From Gemmatimonas sp. (GTDB lineage: Bacteria; Gemmatimonadota; Gemmatimonadetes; Gemmatimonadales; Gemmatimonadaceae): a DNA stretch of 64,000 nt. Within the stretch, counting starts at the first letter, position 1. Each line of letters starts with the position of its first letter. Where the stretch lies: assembly GCA_965279375.1 (NCBI GenBank), contig OZ257156.1:896001-960000 (forward strand). Direction: 5' to 3'. The notes under the pieces were generated by a model. That model saw only the letters and a program-made list of their open reading frames with translations. It was not told the origin of the DNA and ran no database searches. Both the position numbers and the translations under genes were made by a program. Of the stretch, positions 11,283 through 29,149 are shown piece after piece.

Positions 11283-11333
11283 CGCGATGGTGGTATGGGT
11301 TTGACGTGTGTAGCGCGTGAGTCGAGTGTGTTA

Positions 11334-14300: not shown

Positions 14301-14990
14301 CGTACCATCTGCGCCCACCTGCACCTGCTGAAAACCTCGCACTATTTTCTTCTTCTTCCAAGTACGTGTTTCCCAAAGCGACGCAAGTTTTTCGATCGCG
14401 AAGTCGGCAACTTTGTCGGCGGCTTTCTTCATGATCTTGACCACGACAAACTTGATGACTTTGCTGACGGGGCCGCGCCGTCCGGTTGCTGTCGCCGAAC
14501 TCTGGGTGGTAATGCGAAAGCGAAGTACGCCCTGTGGGCTCGACGAACGCTTTTTGTCGGTTGACTTTGCAGCTCTGCGCTTTCGTGCGCCGCGCATTCC
14601 TGTGCCGAGGATGTCACCGACCGCGAAACTCACGGCATCCGATGCATGACGTGCAATGACGACGTGCGTTTGGCGATCTGTCGGCTCGTATTCGAATGTG
14701 AGCGGTTGATCCTCCACGTTGCGCCGTGCTGGAAGCACCGCTTCGTGCGAGCTTACCATCTCGATTTCATTCGTGGCAAGCAGTGTCTTGACAAATGGGT
14801 CGATCCCGCTGTCGGCCCGTTGGCCTCGTCGCACTCGCCGTGCGCGTTCCGCGAGTGGTGCTGCGGAGATAAACCACGCACTGGTGCTCGTAATTGCACC
14901 TCTGCCCGAAGTACCTGATCTCTTCGTACTGGCGCGCTTGGTCGTTGATCGAGAGGCAACGGAGCGCTTGGGTCGGCGAGGCGAGGGCAT
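11334..14990 (-). CDS. Alpha/beta-hydrolase + CHAT (caspase-like) protease + Cys-rich C-terminal domain
   Basis: Lipase-like FIHGTFS, THSRG, NDLVVP, VTH; CHAT motifs PWE, LHFIGHG, VFLNAC, VANQFSV, WAVPVLF; C-terminal H...CPGY...LCRQC. Confidence 0.85.
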   Translation of the reverse strand: MPSPRRPKRSVASRSTTKRASTKRSGTSGRGAITSTSAWFISAAPLAERARRVRRGQRADSGIDPFVKTLLATNEIEMVSSHEAVLPARRNVEDQPLTFEYEPTDRQTHVVIARHASDAVSFAVGDILGTGMRGARKRRAAKSTDKKRSSSPQGVLRFRITTQSSATATGRRGPVSKVIKFVVVKIMKKAADKVADFAIEKLASLWETRTWKKKKIVRGFQQVQVGADGTLSLVQLKNSRKLPEGRKLLFIHGTFSNFQGGFGALGKTRGADGQTFFDKVRATYGERIYAFNHFTVSETAEANGRDLMLALSTTNQEFDVITHSRGALVLRTILESAELAPLAKRFSVGNVVLVAGPNEGTPLASPDRWHLFTDWIGNVIDLFPDNPFTTGADFLVESVAWLAGKVGDVIPGLATMNPRGPLIDELQSLPHPAGTWSALASNHEPSEGVVARMVDVGVDGFFGMANDLVVPTRGGWRVGTPTMTIVGNDRVGCYGPGGNLRTNGPVDVTHTTFFNQTETVDFLARAVLGQPQGLPTMQLDAELPTKRDGRRGNGAMTSDARGAATPPINPPSTTLPPETDGNHPPRVSTVRPSRQSFLDEVLHLFIVSPLNALAMPKENDSDYGLSQMVANSTKGDTALLIASFRNARVIEPFRPTRGEARDRYQLIDNTHKRIKGYIDGNSRYKSLPSEEELRKYGALLFDSIFPGEVRRLYDTARAELKERRLNVCLTSTIGWVADKPWEFAFDPYEETFICTEEVNFIRNSITAVPADALGARSGKLRILVIAAQPVGAGALSIDEEISMVRSAFEPLIRAGLAEVQVEVDVTPQKLHELLSLTDVIGDRFDVLHFIGHGEFDETTGFGYLLFEDRSGRSHELRADIFRQIAAHRGVRLVFLNACETGTGFGRRHPNRVFDFSSGVAPMLVSGGVPAIVANQFSVLDVSATAFAQHFYWALSIGRTIGDAAREARVAVNYSIAGEAIDWAVPVLFARNPDDVLVPHADTSATAIARMTDLAPATTARRSLTRSTKPTIAIWDLNYVIPELNRVVQRLNDAQEVFVFERANLTAPLGTWRRSRQRNTQHAVLDAAEVETKLKPTLERLGVAQLCCITTMALWSDGKESLSASVSDDGRISIVSTGGRLEKMHAPYTIERFLANALAFSLSEVSTHSIGPKNCPGYYNNEEDIRWDAGPLELCRQCAGKIKKPTRRAAIKGILRAFD

Positions 14991-15314
14991 ATAGGGACCT
15001 CAGTGGGAAAGACCAAACATTTCGGGGGCAATTCGCGCAAGAACAGTGTTGCGATCTGTGAGTTCGCGCAATTCGGCAGCTGCCCAGTCGACGGCTTGCT
15101 TGAAGGATTCACTTCGCGCATTTCTCGCGACCTGATCAGGCAACGCCATTCGCGCGGTCGGTGACTGGCGGGCTGTTCAATACCGATCTGACGCCGTGGC
15201 ATCACCATCAATCGCAGTGGTCCGAGCGTCTCGCGCTGGCACGTTCCTTCCTCGGCGGCCTTCGGTGTTGAACGCGCCGTCTCCCTGCGACGCAGAAGAC
15301 CGGGTCCCATACAC

Positions 15315-15537
15315 AGCGAACGTCGCGGAATCGTCCTTCGGCAGTTTGAAGAAGGAACGGGTAAAGAAGCACATCTATCGGAACGGCGAGCTCGCGACCG
15401 TGGAGATCGCAGACGATATCAACCGCTTCTTCAATTGCATACGGCGGCACGGTCACTTAGACGGGCTCAGTCCCGAGCGATTTGAAGCCGCTCACAAGTC
15501 CCGCTGCCGACGTGTCCACTAAGCGCTGGGAACTCCA
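15315..15537 (+). mobile_element. IS3-family remnant (transposase C-terminus and right inverted repeat)
   Basis: ANVAESSFGSLKKERVKKHIY...FNCIRRHGHLDGLSPERFE matches the IS3 OrfB integrase-core end; terminal GTGTCCACTAAGCGCTGGGAACTCCA at 15512-15537. Confidence 0.85.
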
Positions 15538-15676
15538 ATTCCTCCTCAATCATGACCCACGGCTCGCCGAGTGGACCCTCCTTCAGCGAGAAGCTAACGC
15601 CTCTGTGATAGGTATGTGCGCGATCTCCTGTTGTTCGATCATTGGGGCCAAGGCATTCTGGAAAGTCTGATACCAT
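15538..15676 (-). pseudogene. Cassette ORF truncated by the IS3 end
   Basis: ATG about 45 nt after the GTTAGGT core site; the frame (MVSDFPECLG...WVMIEEE) runs directly into the IS terminal repeat. Confidence 0.5.
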
Positions 15677-15714
15677 TCGAGAAACTCTAGCGTGGGTGGT
15701 ACCGTCTTAGGCCC

Positions 15715-15827
15715 ACCTAACGCTCGCGTTCTGTTGCAGCGCCCTTCAACAGGATGCGGCCAGCGAGCGCAGCGAGCAATAGGCCGCACTCCTTGAAAGC
15801 GCTCTCAACAGCAACGCAAGGTTAAGC
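15715..15827 (-). mobile_element. Integron attC site
   Basis: Minus strand: GCTTAAC-CTTGC-GTTgCTGTTGaGAGCGC...GCGCTGCAACAGAAC-GCGAGC-GTTAGGT; canonical R''/L''/L'/R' layout with internal stem. Confidence 0.9.
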
Positions 15828-16068
15828 GGCGCTGGCGCGCACCCGCCCACCCCCGGATTGCGGGTTTCGCCCACTTACTCATCGGAGCGTCATTCCGGTG
15901 GTCACTGGACGGTGGTTCGAGGGCCTCGGCGCGCCCGATCCCCTGTTTTGCACTAGGCTCTTGAGTCGCATCCATATGTATACAGTTCGCGGCCTCCGTC
16001 CTCTAAGCCACCCTACTGCTTCTTCGTCGACCGGGTGCGATTCCGCTCTTTGGCCAGCCTCTAGCCGT

Positions 16069-18495
16069 TCAATCCAGTATGGGTGGGTAGGCAAGAGGGT
16101 CGGTGGAGGCCATCAGATCGTACACCGCCTGAAATACGCTCTCGGTGTTCGGCTTCGACATGTAGTCGCCGTCGCGGCCGTACGCAGGTCGATGCGCTGC
16201 CGCCGTGAGCGTTCGCGGGGCCGCATCCAGCCAGTGGAAGCCGCCTTGCCTTTCCAACACCTCTTGCATCATGTACGATGTCGCGCCGCCGGGCACGTCC
16301 TCGTCGAGGAAGAGGACACGGTTTGTTTTCTTCAACGACTCAACAATCGCGCAGTCGATATCGAACGGCAGCAACGACTGGACATCGATCACCTCTACGC
16401 TCACACCGGTGGTCGCAGCGAGAGAGTCCGCCGCCTCCAGGGCGACCTGACAGCACGCGCCGTACGTCACGACGGTCACGTCCTTCCCTTGCCGGATGAC
16501 CTCGACGCGGCCGATCGGCGTCTTCAGCTCACCGATGTTCAGCGGCATCCGCTCCTTCCGATAGTACCCGTTCAGGACCTCGACAACCACGGCCGGGTCC
16601 CCGGATTGGAGGAGGGAATTGTAGAACCCAGCCGCACGGGTCATGTCGCGTGGGACGAGCACGTACATTCCTCGCAAAAGGTGCACGATCGCCGCCATCG
16701 GTGAGCCCGAGTGCCAGACTCCGACGAGACGATGACCTCGTGTCCGCACGATGACTGGTGCTTTCTGTCCGCTCTTAGTGCGGTAGCGGAGCGACGCGAG
16801 ATCGTCGCTCAGGATCTGTAGCGCATAAGGCATGTAGTCGACGTACTGGATCTCTGCAATTGGACGAAGTCCACGCATCGCGAGGCCGATCGCCTGGCCA
16901 ATGATGGTGCACTCTCGGATACCGGTGTCCGCCACGCGACTCTCCCCGAAGCGAGCCTGCAGCCCCGCGAATCCTTTGTTGACGTCCCCGAGACGACCCA
17001 CGTCTTCGCCGAACGCGATGATACGTGGGTCGCGCGCGAGCGCGGCATCGAAACAGGCGTTCAGCACACGATGAGCATCAACGCCGCTCCCATCTCCGTA
17101 CACCGGTGCCACCGACTTCACACGCAATGCGGAGTCCGCGCCTTCCGCATAAAGGTGGGAGTCGTATTGCTCGCGGCTTGCCTCCCGCTGTTCCCTGACC
17201 CATCGCCGGAGCGGTTCGACAGCCGCAGTGTCGCATCCCCGGACAGCGACTAGGGCGCGGTGGGCCGTCGACGCAAGATCGCGACGCAGCGGCTCGGTGC
17301 AGGCAGCCACCGCGGCGCTTGCCGCGGCGAACTCTGCGTGGCCGTCGGGACATGCCGCACCAACCTCTTTCAACGCGGCAGTCAGCGACCGTGCCTCGGC
17401 CAGGATCGGAGCCTGGTAGTCATTCCATGCCTCGTCACGCTCCCGCCGCACGTACTCACGCTCCCCGCGCTCCAGCATCTCGAGGTCTTCCACCGACGCG
17501 AACCCGTCGGTGATGAGCCATGCGCGCATCCGCGCGAGGCAGTCATGCTCCTTCTCCCAGGTCAAGCGTTCAGTAGACTTGTAGCGCTCGTGGCTCCCAG
17601 TCGTCGAGTGACCGAGAGGTTGCGTTAGCTCGACCACATGCACGACTGCCGGCACGTGGTCCCGTCGCACCCCCGCGGCCGCGATGGCGAACGTGTCGAC
17701 AAGGGCCGGATAGTCCCAGCCGAGTACGGTCATAAGCTCGAGACCGCCTTTCCTGTTTGGCGTGCGACGGAATCCCTCTAGCAGCTCTGCGAGGTGCCCC
17801 TTTGTTAGCTGAAGCTCGTTCGGGACCGAGATGCCATAGCCGTCGTCCCAGACTGAGAGCAGCATGGGGACCTGCATGACGCCGGCGGCGTTGAGCGTCT
17901 CCCAGAACATCCCTTCGGCGCACGATGCATTTCCGATTGTACCGACGGCGATCTCGTCGCCGTCGCGCGAGAACCGCGTCATGGAGCGCAGCTCTGGCAA
18001 CGTCCGGTAGAGCTTGGATGCCTGTGCGAGCCCGAGAAGTCGAGGCATCTGTGCAGCCGTCGGCGAGATATCCGCGGAAGAATGGAAGTCATCAACAAGT
18101 GCCTTCCACTCGCCCGACTCGTCGAGCATGCGAGTGGCGAAATGAGCGTTCATGCTGCGACCCGCGGACGAGGGTTCGGCAACGACGTCGACGTGTCCGT
18201 ATAGTTGCGCAAAGAACTGACGGACGTCGAGCGCGCCGAGCGCGAGCATGAGCGTCTGGTCGCGGTAGTAGCCGGACCGGATGTCGCCAGGCCGCAGCGC
18301 GCGGGCCAAGGCTACTTGGGCGACTTCTTTTCCGTCTCCGAAAATCCCGAACATGGCACGTCCGGTTATGACCTCATCGCGGGCGACGAGGCTCAGCTGG
18401 CGGCTCCGGTAGGCGGTTCGGTAGTCCTCCAGCACGAGGGCCGGATCGAGTCCCTCCACCGCCCTCTGCTGGATAGTGCTCCCGACAAGTGTCAT
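16069..18495 (-). CDS. Branched-chain 2-oxoacid dehydrogenase E1, fused alpha/beta
   Basis: GDGKEVAQ, SGYYRDQT, ThDP-motif variant GNASCAEG...WDDGYGIS, GEDVG, DTGIRE, EIQYVDY, WHSGS, EVIDVQSLLPFD. Confidence 0.92.
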   Translation of the reverse strand: MTLVGSTIQQRAVEGLDPALVLEDYRTAYRSRQLSLVARDEVITGRAMFGIFGDGKEVAQVALARALRPGDIRSGYYRDQTLMLALGALDVRQFFAQLYGHVDVVAEPSSAGRSMNAHFATRMLDESGEWKALVDDFHSSADISPTAAQMPRLLGLAQASKLYRTLPELRSMTRFSRDGDEIAVGTIGNASCAEGMFWETLNAAGVMQVPMLLSVWDDGYGISVPNELQLTKGHLAELLEGFRRTPNRKGGLELMTVLGWDYPALVDTFAIAAAGVRRDHVPAVVHVVELTQPLGHSTTGSHERYKSTERLTWEKEHDCLARMRAWLITDGFASVEDLEMLERGEREYVRRERDEAWNDYQAPILAEARSLTAALKEVGAACPDGHAEFAAASAAVAACTEPLRRDLASTAHRALVAVRGCDTAAVEPLRRWVREQREASREQYDSHLYAEGADSALRVKSVAPVYGDGSGVDAHRVLNACFDAALARDPRIIAFGEDVGRLGDVNKGFAGLQARFGESRVADTGIRECTIIGQAIGLAMRGLRPIAEIQYVDYMPYALQILSDDLASLRYRTKSGQKAPVIVRTRGHRLVGVWHSGSPMAAIVHLLRGMYVLVPRDMTRAAGFYNSLLQSGDPAVVVEVLNGYYRKERMPLNIGELKTPIGRVEVIRQGKDVTVVTYGACCQVALEAADSLAATTGVSVEVIDVQSLLPFDIDCAIVESLKKTNRVLFLDEDVPGGATSYMMQEVLERQGGFHWLDAAPRTLTAAAHRPAYGRDGDYMSKPNTESVFQAVYDLMASTDPLAYPPILD

Positions 18496-18512
18496 GATGG
18501 TCGTCCTTTTCG

Positions 18513-20978
18513 TTACGACACGATGTTCACAAGTACTGGCGAGACGTAGACCACGCGACGCGGTTCTCTTCCATTCAGGTGCCGCTGCACCACCTCGCTG
18601 GCTGCCGCCGCCGCTTTGGTCTCATCAGGCGCGAGACTCGCGTTGACGCGAATACGGTCTCGCACTCTTCCGTTGACCTGCACCACGAGGAGATGCGTCT
18701 CCGCTCGCACCGCGCTCTCGTCCACGGTAGGCCAGCGTTGGAGGTGCACCGAGTATGGCTTTCCCATTCGGCACCACAGTTCCTCGGCTATGTGCGGCAT
18801 GAGGGGTGCTAGCATGAGAACGAGCATGTCACACGCCTCGACCCATTCGTGCGTCCCCTCGAGTCCGTCGCGCTGAGCTTCGATGAGATCACTGGTGAAC
18901 TGCATGAGCGACGGCACGACGGTGTTGAATGCGAACCTGTCAAGGTCGTTGGTCACTGACAGTAGCGTACGATGCGCGCTGGCCTTGAGGGCGGTGCGAG
19001 CGGCCGCACTGGCCACCGGCTCCGTAGGATGCTCCCTGCGCGTCGCGAGCAACGCCCACACGCGCCGCACCCAGCGCGCGGAACCTTCAATGGCTTTTTC
19101 GTTCCATGGTCCCCCCTGGTCCCAGCGGGCGAACCATGCCAAGTACACGCGGACAACGTCTGCACCGTAGCGGTCGACGAGATCGTCCGGAGCGACCACG
19201 TTCCCCTTCGACTTCGACATCTTCGTCGCATCCGCGCCCAAGATCGGGCCTTGGTTGCGAAGCTGGAGCATCGGCTCGGGACCACTCGTGAGTCCGATGT
19301 CGCGAAGCGCCTTGTGGAAGAAGCGCGTGTAAATCAGGTGCATCGTCGCGTGTTCGACACCGCCAGTGTAGGTGTCGACCGGCATCCAGTAGGCGTACTC
19401 CTCCTTGGAGAACGGACCCGCATCGTCGTGCGGGCTCAGGTAGCGAAGGTGGTACCAGGATGAACAGACGAACGTGTCCATGGTGTCGGAATCCCGCTCC
19501 GCATCACCGCCGCAGCGCGAACACTGCGTCATCCGCCAAGTCGGGTGCAGTTTGAGAGGGCTTTCTCCAGTTGGGAGCCACTCCACGTCTTCGGGAAGGG
19601 TGACAGGCAGCTCACCGTCCGGAACCAGCACCGGACCGCACGACTGGCAGTGCACGACGGGAATGGGCGCTCCCCAGTACCGCTGCCGTGATACCAGCCA
19701 GTCACGGAGCCGATATTGTACAGTGCGGTGGCCGACGCCCTTGTTCTCGAGAAACTCGATGGTGCGACCGATTGCGTCGGCAGCCGAGGTTCCCGTGAGC
19801 GATCCCGAGTCCACCATGCGACCACGGCCGGTCCAGGGGAGCTTCGGACCCTTGGACGAGTCCGTGACATCGGTCGGCTGGAGCACCTGCCGGACCTTAA
19901 GTTCGTAGCGTGTCGCGAAGTCGAAATCCCGCTGGTCGTGCGCCGGCACACCCATTACCGCCCCAGTGCCGTACCTCGCGAGGACATAGTCGGCAACCCA
20001 GATCGGCACCCGGTCACCGGTCAACGGGTGGGTAGCAAAGGCGCCTGTATCGACGCCTGTCTTGACGCCGTCCGTCGATTCACGCTGAACGTCCGACTGG
20101 CGTAACGCGGCGGAAACATACGACATGACGGGATCGCGCTGGTCGACCTTCAGAAGCCGCGGAAGAAGCGGGTGCTCGGGGGCGATCGCGAGGAAGGTGA
20201 CGCCCCATAGTGTGTCCGGGCGCGTCGTGAACACTTCCAGCGATTCCCCGGCATCCGTCGCGAATCGAACGAGAGCTCCTTCGGACCGACCGATCCAGTT
20301 GGTCTGCGCAAGCTGCACGCGCTCGGGCCAATCCAAGCCTGAGAAGTCCAGCAGCTCTTCGGCGTATCGCGTCGTTCGAAAGAACCACTGCTCCAGTTCA
20401 CGCCGCGTCACGGGGGATTCGCAGCGTTCACAGATACGGTCGTCGGTGATAACCTGTTCGCGCGCTAGGGTCGTGTTGCACCCAGGACACCAGTCCACGG
20501 CGGCGCGCTTACGGTACGCAAGCCCGGCCTTGAAGAGCCAGACGAATAGTTGCTGTGTCCAGCGATAATACTCGGTGTCGGACGATACCATCTCGCGCCT
20601 CCAATCGAACATCGCGCCCATGCGCTGAAGCTGGCTGCGCATGCGATCGATGCTGGCGTAGGTCCACTGCGCCGGGTGCACGCCGTTCTTGATCGCGGCG
20701 TTTTCCGCCGGGAGCCCGAACGCATCGAAGCCCATCGGGAAGAGCACATTGAACCCCTGCATGCGCATGAACCTTGCCCGCATGTCGGACGGCACCATGG
20801 CATACCAGTGACCGATGTGGAGGGCGCCCGACGGATACGGCAGCATCGTGAGCGCAAAGTGCTTGGGACGCGTATGGTCGACGCGCGCACGATCGATGCC
20901 GTCCGCGGCCCAGCGCGCCTGCCAACGGGTCTCGACCTCTCCCGGCCGGTATTCTGATCTAATCTTCGCATCGACCAT
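18513..20978 (-). CDS. leuS: Leucyl-tRNA synthetase (probably an accessory copy)
   Basis: MLPYPSGALHIGH, GFDAFGLPAENAA, Zn knuckles, CP1 editing motifs TTRPDT and GTGAVMGVPAHDQRD, DWLVSRQRYWG, GGVEHA, KMSKSKGN, VQVNGRVR. Confidence 0.97.
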   Translation of the reverse strand: MVDAKIRSEYRPGEVETRWQARWAADGIDRARVDHTRPKHFALTMLPYPSGALHIGHWYAMVPSDMRARFMRMQGFNVLFPMGFDAFGLPAENAAIKNGVHPAQWTYASIDRMRSQLQRMGAMFDWRREMVSSDTEYYRWTQQLFVWLFKAGLAYRKRAAVDWCPGCNTTLAREQVITDDRICERCESPVTRRELEQWFFRTTRYAEELLDFSGLDWPERVQLAQTNWIGRSEGALVRFATDAGESLEVFTTRPDTLWGVTFLAIAPEHPLLPRLLKVDQRDPVMSYVSAALRQSDVQRESTDGVKTGVDTGAFATHPLTGDRVPIWVADYVLARYGTGAVMGVPAHDQRDFDFATRYELKVRQVLQPTDVTDSSKGPKLPWTGRGRMVDSGSLTGTSAADAIGRTIEFLENKGVGHRTVQYRLRDWLVSRQRYWGAPIPVVHCQSCGPVLVPDGELPVTLPEDVEWLPTGESPLKLHPTWRMTQCSRCGGDAERDSDTMDTFVCSSWYHLRYLSPHDDAGPFSKEEYAYWMPVDTYTGGVEHATMHLIYTRFFHKALRDIGLTSGPEPMLQLRNQGPILGADATKMSKSKGNVVAPDDLVDRYGADVVRVYLAWFARWDQGGPWNEKAIEGSARWVRRVWALLATRREHPTEPVASAAARTALKASAHRTLLSVTNDLDRFAFNTVVPSLMQFTSDLIEAQRDGLEGTHEWVEACDMLVLMLAPLMPHIAEELWCRMGKPYSVHLQRWPTVDESAVRAETHLLVVQVNGRVRDRIRVNASLAPDETKAAAAASEVVQRHLNGREPRRVVYVSPVLVNIVS

Positions 20979-21029
20979 TGCGTTGTCCTCGTTTTTGCGT
21001 CGTGGCGCGCAGGATTCCCGTACGCCGAA

Positions 21030-22340
21030 TCAGGCGGCGAGCTGAGAGTCGTTGAGTGTGAGGCACTGGTAGGCCGCGTGGATCGTGGCCGCGTCCACGC
21101 CGCCCATGAGGCGTGCTTCGCGACAGAGACCACGAACGCACTCGCGGGCGATCGCTCGCGAATCGTCGTTGACGCGCTCTGCGTCCCACGTCGGTAGGAG
21201 CTCGTGCGACACCGCGACAACGCCGCCGCCGGAAACAATGGGATCGGGGATGAACACAATGCCAACGGCCGTGAACTCCTGAAGCAGCGCGTCGCCGCGA
21301 TGCTCGATCGAGCCGAGTTGGTCGTTGCCGGCGCCGAGGATCAGGCGAACGCGTGCGCCCGCGCGGCGAGCCGCGGCCAGGATCTCACCTCGGGTGCGCA
21401 GATCGCCGACGGGGCGCGTGCCTAGGAAATCGGTGCCTCCTCCGTTCGGGCTGACGACCTCGACCGTCGGATCTTCGAGCGCGGCAACCTCAGAGTCGAA
21501 GACGCTGCCACGCTCGACCAATCGGCGCAGCAGCGCCAGGTGGCGCTCTTCATCGACCTCGCCGCCGCGCGCCTTTGTGGCACGATAGAGACGATCCGCG
21601 GAATCGAGGGACGGATCGAGTTGCGGATCGAACACAACGACGTCGGCGCCAGCGCGATCGAGCAGGTACGCGAGAGGGAGACCAACCTTGCCGAGACCAA
21701 GAACGAGCACCCGAACCTCATCCAAGGATGTCTGGCCCTGCAGCTCCTCGATCGTCTCGAGCAGGCCCGCCTTCACGCCTTCCGCTGTCGCCTCACCAGT
21801 GTCACGTCCGCACTTGAGGCCGATCGTGTAATCGGTGAGGGAGTTCATCAGTTCCAGGTCCGCGTGACTCAGGCCCTGATCAAGCGAGCCAAGGTAGTCG
21901 CCAGCAATGAAGTTCAGGAGCGCCGCATGCGCGCGAAGGCGAGCCTCTCCCACGCCGGTGCCACCGGGGCCGAGTTTGTGCTCCGCAGGAACCCAGATCG
22001 TCCCCTTGCCTCCGGCCCACGAGTAGTGCCGCACGTCGGGTCCCAAGCGGCACGCCGCTCCATAGATGAGCGTCGTCTTGGCGTCCATGGCCCGCGCGAG
22101 CGCCCCAGCGGTGCGCAAGGCATGGGTGTGATCAGGGCACTGAACGATCCGGGTGCCACCAAGACCGACGCGGTTACCCCCCAACGCGGTCTTCGAGACG
22201 ACGACCGAGCTGTAGATCCGGGCGTCGGGGGCGACCGAAGACCCGTTGAAGGCTTCGAAAAGGACGTAGCCGCCATCGAATCGCGCGGGACCTCGAAGTG
22301 TGAGATCCCCCTGCTGAACTTCGCGGTAGTGCATCGACAT
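21030..22340 (-). CDS. Divergent Leu/Phe/Val dehydrogenase family protein
   Basis: LGGTR, LARAMDAK, GGK, D in SLDQG, ATAEGV, Rossmann GLGKVG, GAGNDQL, PD...GGVV; purine-rich RBS GAGAAAGG before ATG 22340. Confidence 0.82.
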   Translation of the reverse strand: MSMHYREVQQGDLTLRGPARFDGGYVLFEAFNGSSVAPDARIYSSVVVSKTALGGNRVGLGGTRIVQCPDHTHALRTAGALARAMDAKTTLIYGAACRLGPDVRHYSWAGGKGTIWVPAEHKLGPGGTGVGEARLRAHAALLNFIAGDYLGSLDQGLSHADLELMNSLTDYTIGLKCGRDTGEATAEGVKAGLLETIEELQGQTSLDEVRVLVLGLGKVGLPLAYLLDRAGADVVVFDPQLDPSLDSADRLYRATKARGGEVDEERHLALLRRLVERGSVFDSEVAALEDPTVEVVSPNGGGTDFLGTRPVGDLRTRGEILAAARRAGARVRLILGAGNDQLGSIEHRGDALLQEFTAVGIVFIPDPIVSGGGVVAVSHELLPTWDAERVNDDSRAIARECVRGLCREARLMGGVDAATIHAAYQCLTLNDSQLAA

Positions 22341-22431
22341 GGCCTTTCTCTCGCACGAAAAGGGTGAGCCCGAGCAAAGGACGGACGGCAGGCCAGCCGC
22401 ATCTGCGCAGGCGGTCAATCTACTTACCGCG

Positions 22432-22460
22432 ATAATATATCATATTTATCTTCATTGCAA
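22432..22460 (-). promoter_or_regulatory. Sigma70-like promoter for the dehydrogenase-leuS-E1 operon
   Basis: Minus strand TTGCAA-N17-TATTAT inside a very AT-rich patch. Confidence 0.65.
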
Positions 22461-22529
22461 GAGTTTATATCGATTAAAATAGCCTAAGGTATCGAGTTGA
22501 GTGCGTTCCGCGGGGAGGCGTCGTTGGGT

Positions 22530-22559
22530 TTGACGGATTATCTATGGAGCTCGTAGTAT
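22530..22559 (+). promoter_or_regulatory. Sigma70-like promoter for the RSH-ATPase operon
   Basis: TTGACG-N18-TAGTAT, 45 nt before ATG 22605; GGAGAG RBS. Confidence 0.55.
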
Positions 22560-22604
22560 TCCTTCGGGGGATTCATAGACGGGCCGATAATCGTTGGAGA
22601 GAAC

Positions 22605-25600
22605 ATGATGAATACCGAGCCGAACGGAGATAGATTTCACACCCCGTTGATGCGTGGCGCCGGGACCGGTGCGGTCCTCGCCGTTCCGGCAAGCCGTGTG
22701 GAGTGGGATCACTGTCAACGCCTTGCGGCGATCCTTCACCAGCGGTTCGACGATCCCGTGCTCACCGAAGCGGGGTTGCTGCACGGCATAGGTGCCCACG
22801 CAGTTGAACGACTCGGCGCGAGCGGAAGGCCAGAGGTCGTCGCGATTCTCGAGGATGTCGAAAAGCTTCGCGCGCTTGAGTTCCGTGACGAGGATCTGAC
22901 GGGAAGTGCTCTTCGAAACGTCTTGCCGCTTCTACGGGATCCGCGGTCCGGCGTGCTGCTGGCGTTCGACCAACTGGACCACGTCGACCCCGATCAATCC
23001 TTTAGACGATGGAGCGCAAAGTTCCACCGTCTTCCCGAGATCGGCGTGGACGCGCTTCCGAGAGAGACCGCGCATCTCGACCCGTTAGTGGAACTCGGGT
23101 CCTATCCACGATTTCTTCGCCGCGTGGTGGCTCCGGTCGCCGCACTCAGTGGATTTTGGCGCGAGCGAAATGCTCTGGATGACTGCGCAACCCTGATTTG
23201 GGACCCCGATCGTGCTAAGGACATCTCCATCGAGGTGAGGCGAGCATCGGGGGCGTGTCGACGCTTGGTTGGGGAAATTGAGGCTTCCTTTGGCGATGGA
23301 GCCGACGCTTCGGTGCTTTGGGAGTGGCGGCACCTCGGTCGGCTGGATCGAGAACTTCCGCGGTCGAACGATCAACTTGCCAGCGCTTTCGATGCACGCA
23401 TCGGAACCCTCGGCTTCGTCACGGTCGTGTGCGTGGACGAGGACGAGTGCTACCGGCTTCTAGGCCGCATTCATCGTCACTTCGAGGGGAGGGGGGAGGC
23501 GTTCCGGGACTATATCGGCAACAAGAAGGGCGACGACTACCGTGCGCTCCACACGCGCGTGGGTCGCCAAGGAGCGGGACGCGGTCCGCGAGAGATCTCC
23601 ATCCGCTTGATTTCCCGAAGTGATGACTTGAAACGAAGCCAGCCGGCTCGACGGTGGCATGATCTGCGCCCGACGAATCCCGCCGGTCCGATGCGCGTGT
23701 TCACCCTCCACGGCGACCCGGTCGATCTTCAGCCGGGTGCTACTGTGGCTGCGTTCGCGGTCGAGGTACACGACGCTCTGCTATTCTACGCGATCGGCGC
23801 CCGGGTCAACCGTCGAACGGTCGAGCTAAACTACAAGTTGTCGCCCGGCGACGTCGTTGAAGTGCTAAAGAGCGAGCGGCTGCAGCCGCTTCCGTCTACT
23901 TGGAAGACTTGGATCCCCGAGATTCTGCCGCAGTCGACGACTTCGTTAAGGGAGTCGACGCCGAACCCAACGCATCGAAGAGTGCGAAAGGCGTATAAAC
24001 GCTTGTTCGAGAGCGAACTCGGCCGGCAGGGATACGCTGAGCTGGAACGACATCTCATACGAGAAGGAATCCGTCGGGTTCCCAGCATGGACGAGATCGG
24101 CCGATTCATTCTTGCGGCAGTGAACTCTTTGTCGGGAGCGCCCCGCAGCGCATGGCTGGACGCGGATTGGTGGTTGCAGCAGATCGGGGCGCTGGTCTAC
24201 AACTCAAAAGACTTCGACCCACTCTTCGAAGTTCAACTCACGAAGGATTTCCAAGGTCTTCTCTTCGAGAAAGTTCGAGACTTGGTCGCCGCCAGCCAGC
24301 TCTGTGAGGAGCTCGGTATCGATCCGCGGACGGCTGGTACTTTCTCTCTGGTACGATGCTCGGCCTGCCATCCTACGACGAGCGACCAAATCCTCGTCGA
24401 ACGGACATACTCGCTACTCACGCTGCACAGGGCCGGTGCTGACTGCGCCAAGGACGCTAGGCCGGTCGACGCCATTGGTCCCTTCGAAGATCAGTTCCTC
24501 TGGATTGAAGGACCGAATAGAGTGGGGTTTGCGGCGACTGTCGCCGAAACATTTTCGAAACACGGTATCGACATCGAGGAGATCATCGCACGAGCGATAA
24601 ATCAGCAGCGAGCTGCCGTCAGGGTGCAGCTGGCGCCTCTGCCGGCTACTCGACTGAAGCAGGTCCTCGAAACATTGCGATCGAACCATGGACTGAAGGT
24701 GACCGACCCGGACGCCGGCCAAGCGACCAGTGAAGAGCGAAATCACTTTCCTCCACGGTCAATGCGCTCGGCCACCCCGCTGACAGATTTCGTTGACTCG
24801 CCATACCGCGTCGGTGACGCACTCTATCAGGACGCGGATTTCTACGGTCAGCAAAGCTCTCTGACGAAACTAAGGACCATCTTTGAAGGCCTGTTGGCGA
24901 ACCCACGTGGTCACGGCCGTCGTTGCTCGATACTGGGGCCGATTAAGGTGGGGAAGACATCGCTGGCGCTCGCGTTCCTCCGCAGGATGTCGAAGGACCA
25001 CGATAGGGTGACGACGATTTATGAGCGGGCGACCCAAACAATGACGTGGCAGGAGATGGAGGCGAATCTTCGAGAGACGATCCTGAAAGAATCTGCCGAG
25101 GTTGCCGCACGCAACAATCGTTCTTTCGACCTTCCACCCGACATCGCACGCAACACGAACATGTACACGGTCGTCAATTCTGTGCGCGAACGTACCGGCG
25201 GTCCAATGATTATCGTGATCGACGAAGCACCGTGGCTGTTCAAAACCTCGCACGAGGGCGGAGAGGCATCCCGACTCGCAGAGGTGGTAGCGCAGCTGCT
25301 TCGAGCCGGCGTGATGTTGATCTGCGTTGGCCCCAAAGTCGGATTCGAGCGTATCCCACCGCGCTTGAGGCCGATCCTTCGCGATGGGACCGATGTCTCC
25401 GTCGACAAGCTGACGCTTCTTGAGGTTCGGGACCTGCTCTTAGCGCGACAGAAGGGAGGTCGATACTCCATCCTGATCGAATCCGGCATTGCCGAAGCTG
25501 TCATGAAAGCAACAAGAGGGAATCCGTTCTGGACAGCCGCGCTCGCAGACAAAATGTGGGAGCTGAACCATGAACGGTACGACAAGACCGTTTTTGAGAA

Positions 25601-25946
25601 CGCGCAAGCTCGTCTGGCGCGTGACAAAATAAAGTTCTACGACCGCTGGGATGATGAGGATCAGTCTTGGCATCCAAATTCGACGATCAAAGGAATTGTC
25701 CGCAAGCTCCTGCAGGAGCTTGCGAAAGAGACTCCTCCCACGGACAAGATGGTTCGAATGCGTACCCAGACTGCTCTCCGCCGTCTGGCGGATGATTCAA
25801 TTCCCTCCGCTGACGAGCTACTCAAAGAACTCGAAGATCTTGGAACCATAGAGCTAAACGCTGAGAGCGCCGGCAAGGATCAGATGTGGTCGCTCGCGGC
25901 ACCAATTTTGGCGCTTCATCTTCGAGAGCATCTTCACAATGCGTGA
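22605..25946 (+). CDS. Degenerate long RelA/SpoT homolog (pseudo-HD, pseudo-synthetase, TGS, Zn-finger, ACT) fused to STAND/AAA-type P-loop ATPase
   Basis: AGLLHG, VVAPVAALSG, ECYRLLGRIH, FRDYIG...DYRALHT; TGS VFTLHG...GATVAAFAVEVH...GARVN...GDVVEV; CSACHP...LHR...DC; ACT NRVGF; SPYRVG, GPIKVGKT, IVIDE, TRGNPF. Confidence 0.8.
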   Translation: MMNTEPNGDRFHTPLMRGAGTGAVLAVPASRVEWDHCQRLAAILHQRFDDPVLTEAGLLHGIGAHAVERLGASGRPEVVAILEDVEKLRALEFRDEDLTGSALRNVLPLLRDPRSGVLLAFDQLDHVDPDQSFRRWSAKFHRLPEIGVDALPRETAHLDPLVELGSYPRFLRRVVAPVAALSGFWRERNALDDCATLIWDPDRAKDISIEVRRASGACRRLVGEIEASFGDGADASVLWEWRHLGRLDRELPRSNDQLASAFDARIGTLGFVTVVCVDEDECYRLLGRIHRHFEGRGEAFRDYIGNKKGDDYRALHTRVGRQGAGRGPREISIRLISRSDDLKRSQPARRWHDLRPTNPAGPMRVFTLHGDPVDLQPGATVAAFAVEVHDALLFYAIGARVNRRTVELNYKLSPGDVVEVLKSERLQPLPSTWKTWIPEILPQSTTSLRESTPNPTHRRVRKAYKRLFESELGRQGYAELERHLIREGIRRVPSMDEIGRFILAAVNSLSGAPRSAWLDADWWLQQIGALVYNSKDFDPLFEVQLTKDFQGLLFEKVRDLVAASQLCEELGIDPRTAGTFSLVRCSACHPTTSDQILVERTYSLLTLHRAGADCAKDARPVDAIGPFEDQFLWIEGPNRVGFAATVAETFSKHGIDIEEIIARAINQQRAAVRVQLAPLPATRLKQVLETLRSNHGLKVTDPDAGQATSEERNHFPPRSMRSATPLTDFVDSPYRVGDALYQDADFYGQQSSLTKLRTIFEGLLANPRGHGRRCSILGPIKVGKTSLALAFLRRMSKDHDRVTTIYERATQTMTWQEMEANLRETILKESAEVAARNNRSFDLPPDIARNTNMYTVVNSVRERTGGPMIIVIDEAPWLFKTSHEGGEASRLAEVVAQLLRAGVMLICVGPKVGFERIPPRLRPILRDGTDVSVDKLTLLEVRDLLLARQKGGRYSILIESGIAEAVMKATRGNPFWTAALADKMWELNHERYDKTVFENAQARLARDKIKFYDRWDDEDQSWHPNSTIKGIVRKLLQELAKETPPTDKMVRMRTQTALRRLADDSIPSADELLKELEDLGTIELNAESAGKDQMWSLAAPILALHLREHLHNA

Positions 25947-27306
25947 TCCGACGCAGATGGGTGGCGGAGCCCCTGCAAATTCTCCGCCAGCTGAGTTCAA
26001 CGGTAACCCGTTCTTCTTCGACGAGCTGATAACGCCGTTGAGCCGGACACTGAAAGAACAAGGCCGATACCTCCGCGGATTTAGGGGGGCAGGAAAAACT
26101 CACATCCTGCGAGCGTTCTCGGTGATCGCCGAATCGATGCTTCTGATGAACCGAAGCCTGAGGGATCGGCCAATCATCTCACCGCTCGATCGGTCGGCGG
26201 AAGAAATCGACATCGTGCTGCGTGACATCGCGCGATCGAAAGGATCGAAGGGAGTTGTCCTCATCGACGACCTAGATCTTCTGCTAGAGCACTCGCAAAA
26301 AGATGGCTTGGACCGCTGGGACTCGCTTTCCGACTCACTGGAGCGGATTTTCACCAGACTTGAGAATGTGCACATTCTCTTCACGACCACCCGCAATCCA
26401 GTTGACATCGGAACGCGGAATCAGATGCTCTCCAACTTCTTGCAAAATGCTCGGGAGCAGCCGCTTGAGCCTTGGAAAACCGCAGAAGAGTGGCACCGAA
26501 AAGTGCGGGATATTCTGGGAGCAAGTCTCGGAGGGGACGCGTGCAGCACTGACGTCGTGGCGAAAGGCATAGTCATACTGAGCGGAGGTCATCCGACCCT
26601 CATCGGTGCCGCCGTGCGGCGGATTCGGAAAACGATGTCGCAGTCGAGCGGATGGATCCCCCCGACCAGGCTTGCGCCCGTGCTCAAGGAGATCCCGCGC
26701 CTTCTCACCGACGACGGCCTCCCGTCTATTAGACGTCGCATCTTAGCGCTGGCCCCAGACCAGCGTAGGGCGCTGGCAGATCTGGCAGGGCATAGCGTAG
26801 GCTACCGTGCGCTCCTCGAGAGGCGAATCGGCGAGGAGCTCACAAATGCAGGGCTTGTACGCAGGCATGACGGCCATCGCGAAGGTCAGCGCGAGTATTC
26901 GATTCCGTCCCCGCTAATTCGGGAAGAGGCATCTGCCGAGCTTTCTTCCCGGGTGGACGATTTCGTTTTGCTTGACCCGTCGACAAGTAATCCAGACCAA
27001 GAAGGCGCGGTGGTCGCCGGTTCGGGATCGACGACTCGCATCGTCAGTCTAAGCGGTCGTTCATGGCAACTCGCGCGTGTGCTCTATGACAACGCGGGGA
27101 AACCGCTGGCGCCCGACGAACTAAATCGACTGCTCGGAGAATTGGTGACCGAAACAGGAAAGCCATTCGTCGTTCACGCCGCGCTCCAACGACTCAGGTC
27201 TTCATTGAAGAACGAGCTGCCGAATCTACTACAAACACATCGCGGCAGCGGATACCTGTTTGACGTACCGCAGCTGCGAGATTACTCCAGGCGACCCAGT
27301 GCTTGA
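25939..27306 (+). CDS. P-loop ATPase with C-terminal OmpR-type winged-helix domain
   Basis: NPF, GFRGAGKT, VVLIDD, SGGHP; C-terminal LARVLYDNAGKPL...ALQRLRSSL...LQTHRGSGYLF; 8-bp overlap with the upstream stop. Confidence 0.8.
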   Translation: MRDPTQMGGGAPANSPPAEFNGNPFFFDELITPLSRTLKEQGRYLRGFRGAGKTHILRAFSVIAESMLLMNRSLRDRPIISPLDRSAEEIDIVLRDIARSKGSKGVVLIDDLDLLLEHSQKDGLDRWDSLSDSLERIFTRLENVHILFTTTRNPVDIGTRNQMLSNFLQNAREQPLEPWKTAEEWHRKVRDILGASLGGDACSTDVVAKGIVILSGGHPTLIGAAVRRIRKTMSQSSGWIPPTRLAPVLKEIPRLLTDDGLPSIRRRILALAPDQRRALADLAGHSVGYRALLERRIGEELTNAGLVRRHDGHREGQREYSIPSPLIREEASAELSSRVDDFVLLDPSTSNPDQEGAVVAGSGSTTRIVSLSGRSWQLARVLYDNAGKPLAPDELNRLLGELVTETGKPFVVHAALQRLRSSLKNELPNLLQTHRGSGYLFDVPQLRDYSRRPSA

Positions 27307-27735
27307 CATAGCGCCGTGCACGAGACCCTTCAGAAAGTCTGCTGAGAACGAGGCCCAAATCATTGGTGGCGGGCGCTACACCGGTCGCTGCGGCGCGGTT
27401 GTGGTTTGTCGACCCTCGCCCCATCGAGCCTACCTTAGCAATTCCGCGCTCACTTTCTTGGCGGCGATTTTGGCCAGCTCGCTTGGAACGCGAGACTTCG
27501 AAACGCCTAACCGTCGCTGTTCGGCTCTGCCTGTGCCCTGCGACTAGACCCCGTGCGAGCGGGAATCCGGTACGAGTCCCGCTCGCCCGCGACGTGAAGG
27601 TGTTCTACTATCCTGGCGTTACAATAGAGGTGGTTTTGCGCTGCTGGGGGTGCGAGAGGACGACGGGCCGGTATTCGCGCACCGTAGGACGTCCCGAACG
27701 TGGGCTTCGCTATGTCTGTTACGGTGAATGGCGCC

Positions 27736-27845
27736 GCCTAACGATTGCGTTCGCTTGCAGGGCCCTTCCATAGGATGCCGACAGTGAGCACAGCGAACAG
27801 TCGGCAGTCCGTGAAGGCCCTGTCAAGCGCAACGCCGGGTTAGAC
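27736..27845 (-). mobile_element. Integron attC site
   Basis: Minus strand: GTCTAAC-CCGGC-GTTgCGCTTGaCAGGGCC...GGCCCTGCAAGCGAAC-GCAATC-GTTAGGC; canonical spacers and two extrahelical bases. Confidence 0.93.
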
Positions 27846-27864
27846 CGCAGCAACGCTGACGGTG

Positions 27865-28989
27865 CTAGTTGGGCGAGAGCGCGGCGAGGACCCGCCGTAA
27901 GATGTCCTCGGAGCGGCGCTGGCCGTAGGGGCGGCCGTAGGCGCTGGAGCTGATCGCCAGCACTGCGTCGTACGCGGGGATGACGTAGATCTTGTTGCCG
28001 CCGTTGCCCGACGCGAAGTGCACCGTGACGTGGCGGTCGCCGAGCGCATAAGTCTTCGTGTACCACAGGTAGCCATAGCTGTCCGCGTAGCGGTCGACCG
28101 CGCCGATGGACACGGAAGGGGCGAGGGCGTGGGCAATCCAGGCGCTGTCCACGAGTTGTTGCCCACCGGCACGCCCGTGGCGCAGCACCAACTCGCCAAT
28201 CGCGACCATATCCCGCACGCGGATCGACAGATTGCCTTGGCCCACCCCTTCGCCCCGCGGCCCGCGACGCCACGCAAATCGGGGCACGCCGAGCGGCCGA
28301 AACAGGACGCGGTTGGCGAAGTCCGCCAGCGGCGCCTGCGCCTGTTGCTCGACCACCCGCCCCGCGAGGAAGGCCGTGAGCGAGGAATAGACGTAGCGCT
28401 CGCCCGGGGGCGACGCCATCGGGACCGCGCGGACGAAGGCCATCCAATCCGGACTGTCGTCGAGACGGGTCTCATTTCCGCGCGCCAGCGAGTCCTCGTC
28501 GTCGGCGTCGAGTCCGGCGCGCATGGTAAGGAGATCGCGGAGACGAATGCGCTGCTGCGCGGGGGTCAGACTCCCTGGCAGGAGCGCGCCCAGGGGAGCG
28601 TCGAGCGTCTGGAGTGCCTGCGGTCCGAGGGCGATGCCGACCAGCAGCGCGGTAATGCTCTTGGTCGCCGACCGGATATCGTGCAACGTGGCGACCGCGT
28701 CGCCATTGAAGTACTGCTCGGCGACGCGTTGGCCATGCTGCTGCACGACCACGCCCTTCAGATCGCGGACCGAGTCCGCGCGATAGGACTGCAGGACGCG
28801 ATCGAGCGCCGGGCGGACCGCGCGCGCCGCGCGTTGGTGGGCCGTGTCGCTCGCCGGCACCCGTCGCCGCACGAGCGAATCACGCACTTGGGCGTGCAGT
28901 GGCTGGGATGACAATCCGCACCACAGGACGAAGCCCAGCACGACACGCGCACAGCGCAGGCGAGGTTCGACGCGGCGAAGGGTAGGCAT
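27865..28989 (-). CDS. Secreted serine hydrolase (beta-lactamase class C/AmpC-like fold) in a gene cassette
   Basis: Signal peptide; SATK (SxxK), LLTMRAG, YSS, YGYLW, ASGNGG; cassette ends form a 13-bp perfect inverted match. Confidence 0.88.
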   Translation of the reverse strand: MPTLRRVEPRLRCARVVLGFVLWCGLSSQPLHAQVRDSLVRRRVPASDTAHQRAARAVRPALDRVLQSYRADSVRDLKGVVVQQHGQRVAEQYFNGDAVATLHDIRSATKSITALLVGIALGPQALQTLDAPLGALLPGSLTPAQQRIRLRDLLTMRAGLDADDEDSLARGNETRLDDSPDWMAFVRAVPMASPPGERYVYSSLTAFLAGRVVEQQAQAPLADFANRVLFRPLGVPRFAWRRGPRGEGVGQGNLSIRVRDMVAIGELVLRHGRAGGQQLVDSAWIAHALAPSVSIGAVDRYADSYGYLWYTKTYALGDRHVTVHFASGNGGNKIYVIPAYDAVLAISSSAYGRPYGQRRSEDILRRVLAALSPN

Positions 28990-29034
28990 GCTCGCTCGGA
29001 CGTGCGCGCCGACGGAAAAGTTTGAAGAGCTGCG

Positions 29035-29149
29035 GTCTAACCCGCTTTCACCTGCACCCCTCAACAGAGCGAATCAATATCGCTCCAACCCTCGGCATGA
29101 CGACTGTAATCGCGCGGCAGTCGGCCCACATCGCACACGCCCGTTATCG
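29035..29149 (-). mobile_element. Decayed attC (or attI-like site) at the head of the array
   Basis: GTTAGAC core on the minus strand at 29035-29041; adjacent TTCACCTGCACCCCTCAACAG resembles the matching arm of the 15715 site; the opposite arm is poorly paired. Confidence 0.5.

What the first reader, a model, noticed from the sequence alone, without database searches (positions are those of the whole stretch)
15721..27741. The whole five-gene system appears to be one ~12-kb integron gene cassette
Seen: the segment begins (minus strand) GTTAGGCGGCGC at 27742-27731. The R'' end of the next attC reads GTTAAGCGGCGC on the plus strand at 15821-15832, an 11/12 inverted match. The neighbouring serine hydrolase cassette shows the same signature (13/13). 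I found no complete attC in between. Established: a cassette's 5' core site and its own R'' are complementary, and cassettes are usually short, promoterless and single-gene. Inference: an exceptionally large, self-promoted cassette carrying an aminoacyl-tRNA synthetase.
Basis: partly seen in the sequence, partly recalled or inferred. Interest (0 to 1): 0.85.

Follow-up and report, generated by a model that had tools for sequence, protein, structure and literature searches.

The report
Giant 12-kb integron gene cassette
Five foreign genes, including a complete spare leucyl-tRNA synthetase and their own regulators, sit in one 12-kb unit between two intact integron recombination sites, several times the usual size limit for such cassettes, but whether it was captured whole or grew in place, and whether it can still move, is not shown.

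Summary
Observation confirmed. Window 15721-27741 (12,021 bp, minus strand) lies between two intact attC sites of the family used by this genome's large chromosomal integron 330 kb away. Its ends match 11/12, and 5/5 at the variable positions, which 0 of 111 other sites do. No attC model hit lies inside, no gap between the five genes can hold one, and no transposase was found. Both sites fold as recombinogenic hairpins. The unit is 3.4 times the largest end-matched cassette of the host array. It sits in an integrase-less four-attC array within a 21.7-kb island missing from 7 of 7 congener loci examined. Its gene modules occur in other phyla without attC, so ready-made divergent operons ended up inside a cassette. 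Against: one genome only, no excision joint seen, an attC-like half-site 231 bp inside the 5' end, and a congener's 8.5-kb end-matched unit that is a small cassette swollen by an IS30-borne block. Verdict: a cassette in form (about 0.9); integrated whole by IntI (about 0.55). The scan had not noted this before.

The parts
15721..27741 (-). The 12,021-bp unit, from the TT after the attC1 crossover to the G of the attC2 crossover
27736..27845 (-). attC1 (ends the hydrolase cassette; crossover G/TT at 27742/27741); CM 125 bits; probability of recombinogenic fold 0.64
15715..15827 (-). attC2 (the unit's own attC; R'' at 15827-15821, crossover G/TT at 15721/15720); CM 114 bits; probability of recombinogenic fold 0.59
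27307..27735 (-). Non-coding 5' leader, structured; holds an attC-like right half (L'-spacer-R') at 27525-27505 that the covariance model does not call
25939..27306 (+). AAA-type ATPase fused to a Trans_reg_C winged helix (455 aa), overlapping the upstream gene by 8 bp
22605..25946 (+). RelA/SpoT-derived protein (HD-like, SYNTH-like, TGS, Cys/His, ACT) fused to an AAA_16 ATPase (1113 aa); catalytic HD and synthetase motifs degenerate
22341..22604 (.). AT-rich divergent spacer with one weak sigma-70-like site per strand (not above chance); contains no AAC...GTT pair that could be an attC
21030..22340 (-). Leu/Phe/Val-dehydrogenase-like protein (436 aa), divergent subfamily; GGKG and NAD-binding motifs present
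18513..20978 (-). Leucyl-tRNA synthetase (821 aa), HIGH, KMSKS and editing motifs present; 42% identical to the host's own LeuRS, 60-65% to others, with Chloroflexota names most frequent among the named hits
16069..18495 (-). Fused alpha/beta 2-oxo-acid dehydrogenase E1 (808 aa); no E2/E3 in the unit
15833..16068 (-). Non-coding 3' tail (contains no GTT on the cassette strand)
27742..29040 (-). Upstream cassette, 1,299 bp, serine hydrolase / beta-lactamase-fold gene, perfectly matched ends
29041..29066 (-). Head junction of the array; weakly attI-like (rank 15 of 4,180 GTTA sites under a profile of 25 genus attI sites); no intI-attI spacer homology
9582..15720 (-). Downstream unit, 6,139 bp: IS3 fragment, CHAT-domain protein, MBL-fold protein; ends in decayed attC3 (9570-9673), so its end match cannot be tested cleanly
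8825..9581 (-). Last cassette: GNAT acetyltransferase (AAC(3)-I-like, below the family cut-off) with decayed attC4 (8825-8960)
7993..8005 (+). Left copy of a 13-bp direct repeat bounding the whole island (followed by three tandem variants); right copy at 29740-29752 overlaps the ppc stop

Best explanation
The 12,021-bp segment is a true, oversized integron cassette: one attC (attC2) plus five genes, which entered this site as a single IntI substrate. Shown: two intact attC sites of the host's own family, self-matched ends, no attC between the genes, an intact integron integrase elsewhere in the genome, absence of the island in congeners. Inferred: the host's IntI, acting in trans, added cassettes one after another at the weakly attI-like head junction (29041) of an integrase-less array: GNAT first, then the 6.1-kb unit, then the 12-kb unit, last the hydrolase, which fits the attC decay from intact at the head to broken at the tail. 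Inferred: the cargo was a ready-made divergent operon from another lineage (regulator pair on one strand; dehydrogenase, LeuRS and E1 on the other), so it expresses from its own central spacer and needs no Pc. Inferred: excision today is possible in principle (both sites fold) but rare, because of the length and because the bottom strands lie on the leading-strand template. For the cargo the likeliest working (inference, about 0.4) is that the catalytically dead RelA/SpoT part senses amino acid or tRNA state through TGS/ACT, the ATPase pair relays it to the winged helix, and the divergent operon handles leucine or a leucine-like compound.
For: End match 5/5 at variable positions, seen with 0 of 111 other R'' ends and 1.2% of non-own pairs; unique best partner position. 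No internal attC by HMM, CM or family-independent scan. Fold probabilities 0.64 and 0.59, array median 0.78 over 108 sites. Integron integrase above the TIGR02249 cut-off, 384 bits against 265. No transposase family in the five genes or in 13 alternative ORFs; no terminal inverted repeats at the inner ends and no other copy in the genome. The host's array already holds end-matched 2-3.6 kb cassettes with 2-3 genes, antisense genes and leaders or tails of 150-420 bp. A second large unit (6.1 kb) follows directly. In the only other genome of 401 in the phylum with the ATPase-fused RelA/SpoT protein (G009), the regulator pair also lies beside an integrase-less attC array, whose head is 88% identical over 252 nt to that genome's intI-attI spacer.
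Against: Single genome, single sample. Matched ends are equally expected if a small cassette was enlarged in place, and congener G061 shows exactly that: an 8,547-bp unit, ends 10/12, with an IS30-like transposase starting right after the core. Five other gaps of 7-15 kb in congeners: the four with both cores readable have unmatched ends (6-9/12), and several hold IS-like ORFs by my reading. An attC-like half-site lies at 27525-27505. In G009 no attC was found at the far end of the block and an IS lies between it and the array. Ten loci from other phyla or metagenomes with the RelA/SpoT-ATPase gene and four with the dehydrogenase-LeuRS pair show no convincing attC of this family (one HMM hit at E 0.049) and no IntI where it was sought. 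Published work finds that long cassettes recombine poorly (PMC5371416; 10.64898/2026.03.17.712381).
Confidence: 0.55

Rival explanations
1. A small, probably gene-less cassette (the 5' leader, the 3' tail and attC2, at most about 0.8 kb) was integrated first and was then enlarged in place by insertion of the 11.3-kb five-gene block through a non-integron route, for example IS-mediated with later loss of the IS. The result is a cassette in form that may never have moved whole.
For: Direct precedent in G061. Leader plus tail plus attC add up to an ordinary cassette size (array median 980 bp). A leader and a tail of 200 bp or more are uncommon in the array: 12 and 6 of 97 cassettes. An IS3 fragment lies in the next unit and an IS beside the G009 block. 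The modules exist elsewhere without attC.
Against: No transposase, IS end or duplicated target found in the unit. No split ORF is evident in the two ends, and neither end resembles any other cassette in the genome or in the loci held.
Confidence: 0.25
2. Nested or fused cassettes made by IntI: the G/TT at 27511 is a real old crossover. Either a 231-bp cassette with a decayed attC precedes an 11.8-kb cassette, or the block was inserted at this internal site of a small host cassette and lost its own attC. The block would still be a giant IntI substrate, but with other borders.
For: The word at 27525-27505 has L'-spacer-R' order; a pattern written after seeing it hits 24 times in the genome, 23 in the array and once here; a looser pattern has 12 hits outside the array, 4 of them at attC sites. 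An AAC lies 109 nt upstream, the usual attC length. The 27511 start matches attC2 at 4 of 5 variable positions.
Against: The covariance model does not call it even on the 429-bp stretch alone; the R-box pairing for that AAC/GTT pair has probability 0.01; total match to attC2 is 8/12 against 11/12 for 27742; the site scores far below attI; the 3' tail holds no GTT, so no guest attC remains. The tight pattern was chosen after the fact.
Confidence: 0.12
3. Chance: the block is ordinary island DNA between two independently placed attC sites, and the end match is a coincidence.
For: 3.7% of non-own pairs reach 11/12; the unit's 5' end matches 8 of 111 foreign R'' ends at 11/12.
Against: attC2 must have come with a 5' end, and the only fitting one within 14 kb is exactly at the attC1 crossover; 5/5 at variable positions; all four attC sites are co-oriented.
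Confidence: 0.05
4. Several ordinary one-gene cassettes fused by loss of their attC sites.
For: Fused cassettes are described for class 1 integrons (PMC4670013, abstract start in search listing).
Against: Gene gaps are 17, 51, 264 and -8 bp (with the dehydrogenase start at 22340); both gene pairs are conserved neighbours in other phyla; a fusion would not give matched outer ends.
Confidence: 0.03

Closest known systems
Integron gene cassettes of sedentary chromosomal integrons (e.g. Vibrio cholerae superintegron)
   Same: attC with R''/L''/L'/R' hairpin, G/TT crossover, self-complementary ends, co-oriented array, bottom strands on the leading-strand template as in most SCIs (PMC5371416 passages).
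   Different: 12.0 kb against about 2 kb named as the largest known in Cury et al. 2016 (PMC4889954 passage) and 3.56 kb for the largest end-matched cassette in this host; five genes in two divergent units, where defence systems in cassettes were reported never to exceed two components (10.1101/2024.07.02.601686 passage); carries a paralogue of a core translation gene.
CALIN / attG-integrated cassettes (Cury et al. 2016; Loot et al., bioRxiv 10.1101/2022.09.11.507474)
   Same: attC cluster without a nearby integrase in a genome that encodes IntI elsewhere; head junction is a G/TT without full attI homology.
   Different: Site spacings of 12.0 and 6.1 kb exceed IntegronFinder's default 4-kb clustering distance, so the array would be split into pieces; several cassettes accumulated at one junction.
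Cassettes enlarged by an IS or transposon
   Same: Large attC-to-attC distance with the original matched ends kept.
   Different: No transposase or IS end found in this unit; in the cited screen the IS-bearing cassette was not recovered.
Long RelA/SpoT homologues (Rel) and STAND-type ATPase regulators
   Same: HD-SYNTH-TGS-Cys/His-ACT order of Rel; Walker A and B motifs; partner with winged helix.
   Different: Catalytic motifs degenerate across the family, C-terminal ATPase fusion, conserved ATPase-wHTH partner; I found no description in one paper search and one paper's passages. The STAND label is my recall, resting on the AAA_16 hit.

Membership tests
Integron gene cassette | Ends in an attC with R''/L''/L'/R' boxes and a folding bottom strand | tested here: met
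   CM 114 bits; fold z -3.6; recombinogenic-fold probability 0.59
Integron gene cassette | Begins at the G/TT crossover of the preceding att site | tested here: met
   attC1 crossover at 27742
Integron gene cassette | 5' core complementary to its own R'' | tested here: met
   11/12; 5/5 variable positions; 0 of 111 other R'' ends fit as well
Integron gene cassette | No further attC inside | tested here: met
   None by HMM, CM or generic scan; none possible in intergenic gaps or 3' tail; a decayed half-site in the 5' leader remains open and would shorten the unit to 11.6-11.8 kb
Integron gene cassette | Excised and integrated as one circle by IntI | not testable with these tools
   Only contigs of one sample were available and they drop rare variants
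Integron gene cassette | Usually one short promoterless ORF (typical, not defining) | tested here: not met
   Five ORFs, divergent, 12 kb
Integron gene cassette | Found at other array positions or in other genomes (mobility footprint) | tested here: inconclusive
   No second copy: genome blastn, 61 relatives and 401 phylum genomes, sequencing runs of one sample only
CALIN | Two or more co-oriented attC sites, no integron integrase nearby | tested here: met
   Four minus-strand sites; nearest tyrosine recombinase is the IntI about 320 kb away
CALIN | Sites less than 4 kb apart (IntegronFinder default) | tested here: not met
   Spacings 12.0, 6.1 and about 0.75 kb
Complete integron | intI and attI adjacent to the array | tested here: not met
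   No intI; head junction only weakly attI-like, no spacer homology
IS- or transposon-enlarged cassette | Transposase, terminal inverted repeats or target duplication inside the unit | tested here: not met
   loss of an IS after insertion cannot be excluded
Active RelA/SpoT enzyme | HD hydrolase motif and synthetase catalytic motifs | tested here: not met
   LLHD of the host Rel aligns to LLHG, YDLLAIR to GTLGFVT; same pattern across 70 homologues; activity itself not tested
Bacterial LeuRS | TIGR00396 above cut-off; HIGH, KMSKS, editing motifs | tested here: met
   908 bits against 548; motifs present

The most novel reading that the evidence does not exclude
Integron cassettes can be made from, and moved as, whole multi-operon DNA blocks of more than 10 kb. 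This unit was built from a pre-existing divergent operon of another phylum, promoters and spacer included, which a copy of a single mRNA could not supply; cassette genesis would then have a DNA route, and integrase-less arrays in this genus would be a store of giant cassettes (12.0 and 6.1 kb here) that standard 4-kb clustering does not see.
Probability: 0.35. Interest if true: 0.85.

Novelty: new variant of a known kind. Interest (0 to 1): 0.62.

Why it matters
[quoted passage not shown] A natural 12-kb unit with two intact sites, divergent transcription units and a spare core translation enzyme tests both ideas directly: one PCR after IntI induction shows whether IntI can move 12 kb, and one relative with or without the block shows whether the cassette was born large or grew in place. 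It also shows a blind spot: default IntegronFinder clustering would split this array. The cargo is of separate interest: an apparently undescribed, catalytically dead RelA/SpoT-ATPase regulator pair that recurs beside amino-acid dehydrogenases and tRNA-synthetase domains.

Tried and rejected
Rfam has no match in the window. Reads: no RNA holder listed; 4 runs of one sample, contigs only, show neither the empty-site joint (15720 to 27742) nor a circle junction; the two listed long joints have short sides (22-29 nt), lie at the wrong coordinates and are best read as other cassettes of the main array mapping by their attC ends; absence in contigs is uninformative. A relic intI-attI spacer in the 5' leader, suggested by an 11-nt word shared with the main integron, was rejected: 23 of 200 shuffles scored as well and a spacer HMM from 25 genus sites gave nothing. 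A conserved cassette-tail signature upstream of R'' does not exist beyond two bases, so the tail cannot be typed. Phage or plasmid origin: no relative in viral contigs for either module (short-pattern searches) or for the RelA/SpoT-ATPase in plasmids. PADLOC gave no hit for the five genes. The tblastx gave unreadable coordinates and was not used. In one search the attC1 string was off by one base, so its attC1 rows were ignored and redone. One search stopped at a script error after the array statistics had printed. In one search, 8 of 33 intI loci gave no usable attI and one of the 25 kept (L078) was probably mis-picked. The genus searches scored only 150 candidates per genome, so congener attC lists were completed on fetched regions only; pairs whose cores my script could not read were left out. 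No structure or complex prediction was run. Literature searches that returned nothing; two searches returned 2 and 4 papers, none describing a cassette near this size in the passages read.
Full report
1. What is there. The window lies at C1:896,001-960,000 of a closed 5.31-Mb genome. No call names the organism; I take it for a Gemmatimonadota member, which is my guess. The genome has a large chromosomal integron: an integrase above the integron-integrase cut-off at C1:1.246 Mb, followed on the same strand by more than 120 attC hits up to 1.40 Mb, next to the GC-skew minimum that marks the origin. The window holds four attC sites of the same family on the minus strand: attC1 (27736-27845), attC2 (15715-15827), and the decayed attC3 (9570-9673) and attC4 (8825-8960). 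Read on the minus strand, the array is: head junction at 29041, a 1,299-bp hydrolase cassette, attC1, the 12,021-bp unit, attC2, a 6,139-bp unit, attC3, a GNAT cassette, attC4. There is no integrase nearby. In 5 of the 7 congener ppc loci examined (chosen among the best ppc hits in 86 genomes) the acyl-ACP desaturase gene ends within about 50 bp of the ppc stop, and in the other 2 only a kinase gene lies between; none has an attC there. The whole 21.7 kb is therefore an insertion, bounded by a 13-bp direct repeat whose three exact copies in the genome are all here.

2. The unit starts GTTAGGCGGCGC and its R'' end reads GTTAAGCGGCGC. Using 111 full-length sites of the main array as a control, 89 of 110 consecutive pairs match at 11 or 12 of 12, against 448 of 12,211 non-own pairs. 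Seven of the twelve positions are nearly constant, so I tested the five variable ones: the unit scores 5/5; own pairs do so in 63 of 110 cases, non-own pairs in 147 of 12,211; and none of the 111 array R'' ends fits the unit's start at all five. Against over-reading: 8 of 111 foreign R'' ends do reach 11/12 with this start. The best partner for attC2 anywhere up to ppc is the base at the attC1 crossover. Inside the unit an HMM from 93 array sites found nothing, a covariance model from 49 sites found at most 7.8 bits where even decayed sites score 32-59, and a family-independent scan found only the two flanking sites. The gaps between the genes and the 3' tail contain no AAC...GTT pair at attC distance, so the five genes are in any case in one attC-free stretch of at least 11.6 kb. 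Both flanking sites fold into the recombinogenic form with probability 0.64 and 0.59 (array median 0.78, n = 108). The unit is one unitig without differences in four runs of one sample, which checks the assembly but is not independent.

3. One complication. 231 bp inside the 5' end, at 27525-27505, lies a word with the order L'-spacer-R', the only minus-strand GTTAG in the unit. A pattern written after seeing it hits 23 times in the array and once outside, here; a looser pattern has 12 hits outside the array, 4 at attC sites. The covariance model does not call it, the matching R-box pairing is improbable (0.01), and its start fits attC2 worse (8/12, though 4/5 at variable positions). It may be chance or the scar of an older crossover; it would shift the border, not remove the giant unit.

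4. The cargo is foreign and pre-assembled. Plus strand: a 1,113-aa protein with RelA/SpoT, TGS, ACT and AAA_16 hits, and a 455-aa ATPase with a winged helix. Minus strand, from a 264-bp AT-rich spacer: an amino-acid-dehydrogenase-like protein, a LeuRS and a fused E1. The LeuRS keeps HIGH, KMSKS and editing motifs, is 42% identical to the host's own and 60-65% to its best hits, among which Chloroflexota names are the most frequent. The large protein belongs to a family of 117 clusters at E <= 1e-30 whose hydrolase and synthetase motifs are degenerate. It is rare: the ATPase-fused form was in 2 of 401 genomes of the host phylum, 3 of 301 in one Acidobacteriota class and 1 of 401 in that phylum. 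Where the downstream DNA is held, an ATPase or winged-helix partner follows in most loci. The neighbours vary, but an amino-acid dehydrogenase is the divergent neighbour in L070, a dehydrogenase fused to a ValRS-like domain follows in L141, and a B3/4 domain lies in G009's divergent unit. The dehydrogenase subfamily sits directly before a LeuRS of 59-62% identity in 4 of 4 genomes that have it, out of 301 searched. None of these loci outside the host genus shows a convincing attC of this family (the models are host-trained, so foreign-type sites could be missed; a generic scan of five loci gave four scattered weak hits). So native operon structure from other lineages lies inside a host-type cassette.

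5. How it most likely works. Shown: all static features of a cassette. Inferred: the host IntI added units in trans at the head junction, which ranks 15th of 4,180 GTTA sites under a profile of 25 genus attI sites (weak). The decay of the attC sites from head to tail fits stepwise addition, as in the main array, whose end matches fall off distally. G009 has a comparable integrase-less array headed by a copy of its own attI region, and its RelA/SpoT-derived pair lies right beside it, across an IS; no closing attC was found there. The host already tolerates end-matched cassettes of 2-3.6 kb with two or three genes, antisense genes and long non-coding ends; this unit is 3.4 times the largest. [quoted passage not shown] I put capture and integration as one unit at 0.55.

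6. The main rival is real. Matched ends survive an insertion into a small cassette. Congener G061 has an 8,547-bp unit with 10/12 ends in which an IS30-like transposase starts just after the core, followed by an efflux block. The window's leader, tail and attC add up to an ordinary cassette size, and ends this long are uncommon in the array. What is missing here is any transposase, IS end, target duplication or split gene. I give this 0.25, nested or fused IntI events at 27511 0.12, chance 0.05, and serial fusion of one-gene cassettes 0.03.

7. Comparison with what is known. Cury et al. 2016 set IntegronFinder's 4-kb clustering distance at twice the largest known cassettes, about 2 kb (PMC4889954, passages). 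A grammar-based study used 1,860 bp as its upper limit (PMC3087341, passages). Defence systems in cassettes never exceeded two components in a RefSeq survey (10.1101/2024.07.02.601686, passages). An IS-bearing V. cholerae cassette with sites 4 kb apart was the only one not recovered in a capture screen (10.64898/2026.03.17.712381, passages). Integration at secondary attG sites is described (10.1101/2022.09.11.507474, passages). I also read passages of PMC3856429, PMC7159879, PMC11551772, PMC2945992, 10.1101/2025.06.18.660453 and 10.1101/2023.11.21.568050 without finding a comparable cassette; PMC4670013 I saw only as a search listing. Searches for large or multi-gene cassettes, for a tRNA synthetase in a cassette and for integrons in this genus returned no such report; the library lacks most subscription papers, and I opened no supplements. 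That an RNA-templated route has been proposed for cassette genesis is my recall.

8. Verdict. Whether it was born and moved at this size is open and can be settled by a simple excision assay or one more strain. New variant of a known kind; interest 0.62.

Noticed in passing
window 22605-27306; L070-L074, L076, L140, L141, L009: A family of catalytically degenerate RelA/SpoT proteins fused to an ATPase (about 1,100 aa, 117 clusters at E <= 1e-30), paired with an ATPase-winged-helix gene and recurring beside amino-acid dehydrogenases and tRNA-synthetase domains; not found described in one paper search. Probably a finding in its own right.
   Followed up: partly
L141:13670-17281: A 1,203-aa fusion of an amino-acid dehydrogenase (ScyB-like hit) and a divergent ValRS-like domain directly after the regulator pair.
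   Followed up: partly
L126:12148-15927; L134:11564-16163; L136:10247-14006; L138:10298-15170: The dehydrogenase-like gene sits directly before a LeuRS in 4 of 4 genomes; in two of them a D-amino-acid-oxidase-like gene follows and a RidA-like gene lies upstream.
   Followed up: partly
window 9582-15720: A second oversized unit (6,139 bp): CHAT-domain and MBL-fold genes with weak defence-system hits and an IS3 fragment; its closing attC is decayed but keeps a word resembling the expected R''.
   Followed up: partly
G000 C1:1,246,000-1,400,000 (L033-L035): [quoted passage not shown]
   Followed up: partly
L091-L120, L078, L086, L089: Integron integrases at E <= 1e-70 in 61 of 87 genomes of the genus, with a conserved attI profile 220-290 bp after the integrase stop; I found no paper on integrons of this genus (genus name is my guess).
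   Followed up: partly
L032:14290-14545 against L089:5808-6058: In G009 an integrase-less array is headed by an 88%-identical copy of the genome's own intI-attI spacer: an orphan attI.
   Followed up: partly
L078:4904-13555: In G061 an 8.5-kb end-matched unit is a small cassette interrupted right after its core by an IS30-like element and a TetR-efflux block.
   Followed up: yes
window 7993-8047 and 29740-29752: 13-bp direct repeat at both island ends, overlapping the ppc stop, with four tandem 14-bp copies on the left; how the island itself arrived is unexplained (no integrase in it).
   Followed up: no
window 9086-9539: GNAT cassette resembling AAC(3)-I aminoglycoside acetyltransferases (88 bits, cut-off 200).
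   Followed up: no
G000 C1:109,642; 316,896 and 318,308; 673,922; 3,703,105 and 3,705,108: Further isolated attC sites or pairs elsewhere in the genome; no matching 5' end was found upstream of the first site of each group within 20 kb.
   Followed up: partly
window 29184-29684 and 8024-8917: A DUF5990 gene upstream of the head junction and an unannotated ORF after attC4 belong to the island but are not cassettes.
   Followed up: no
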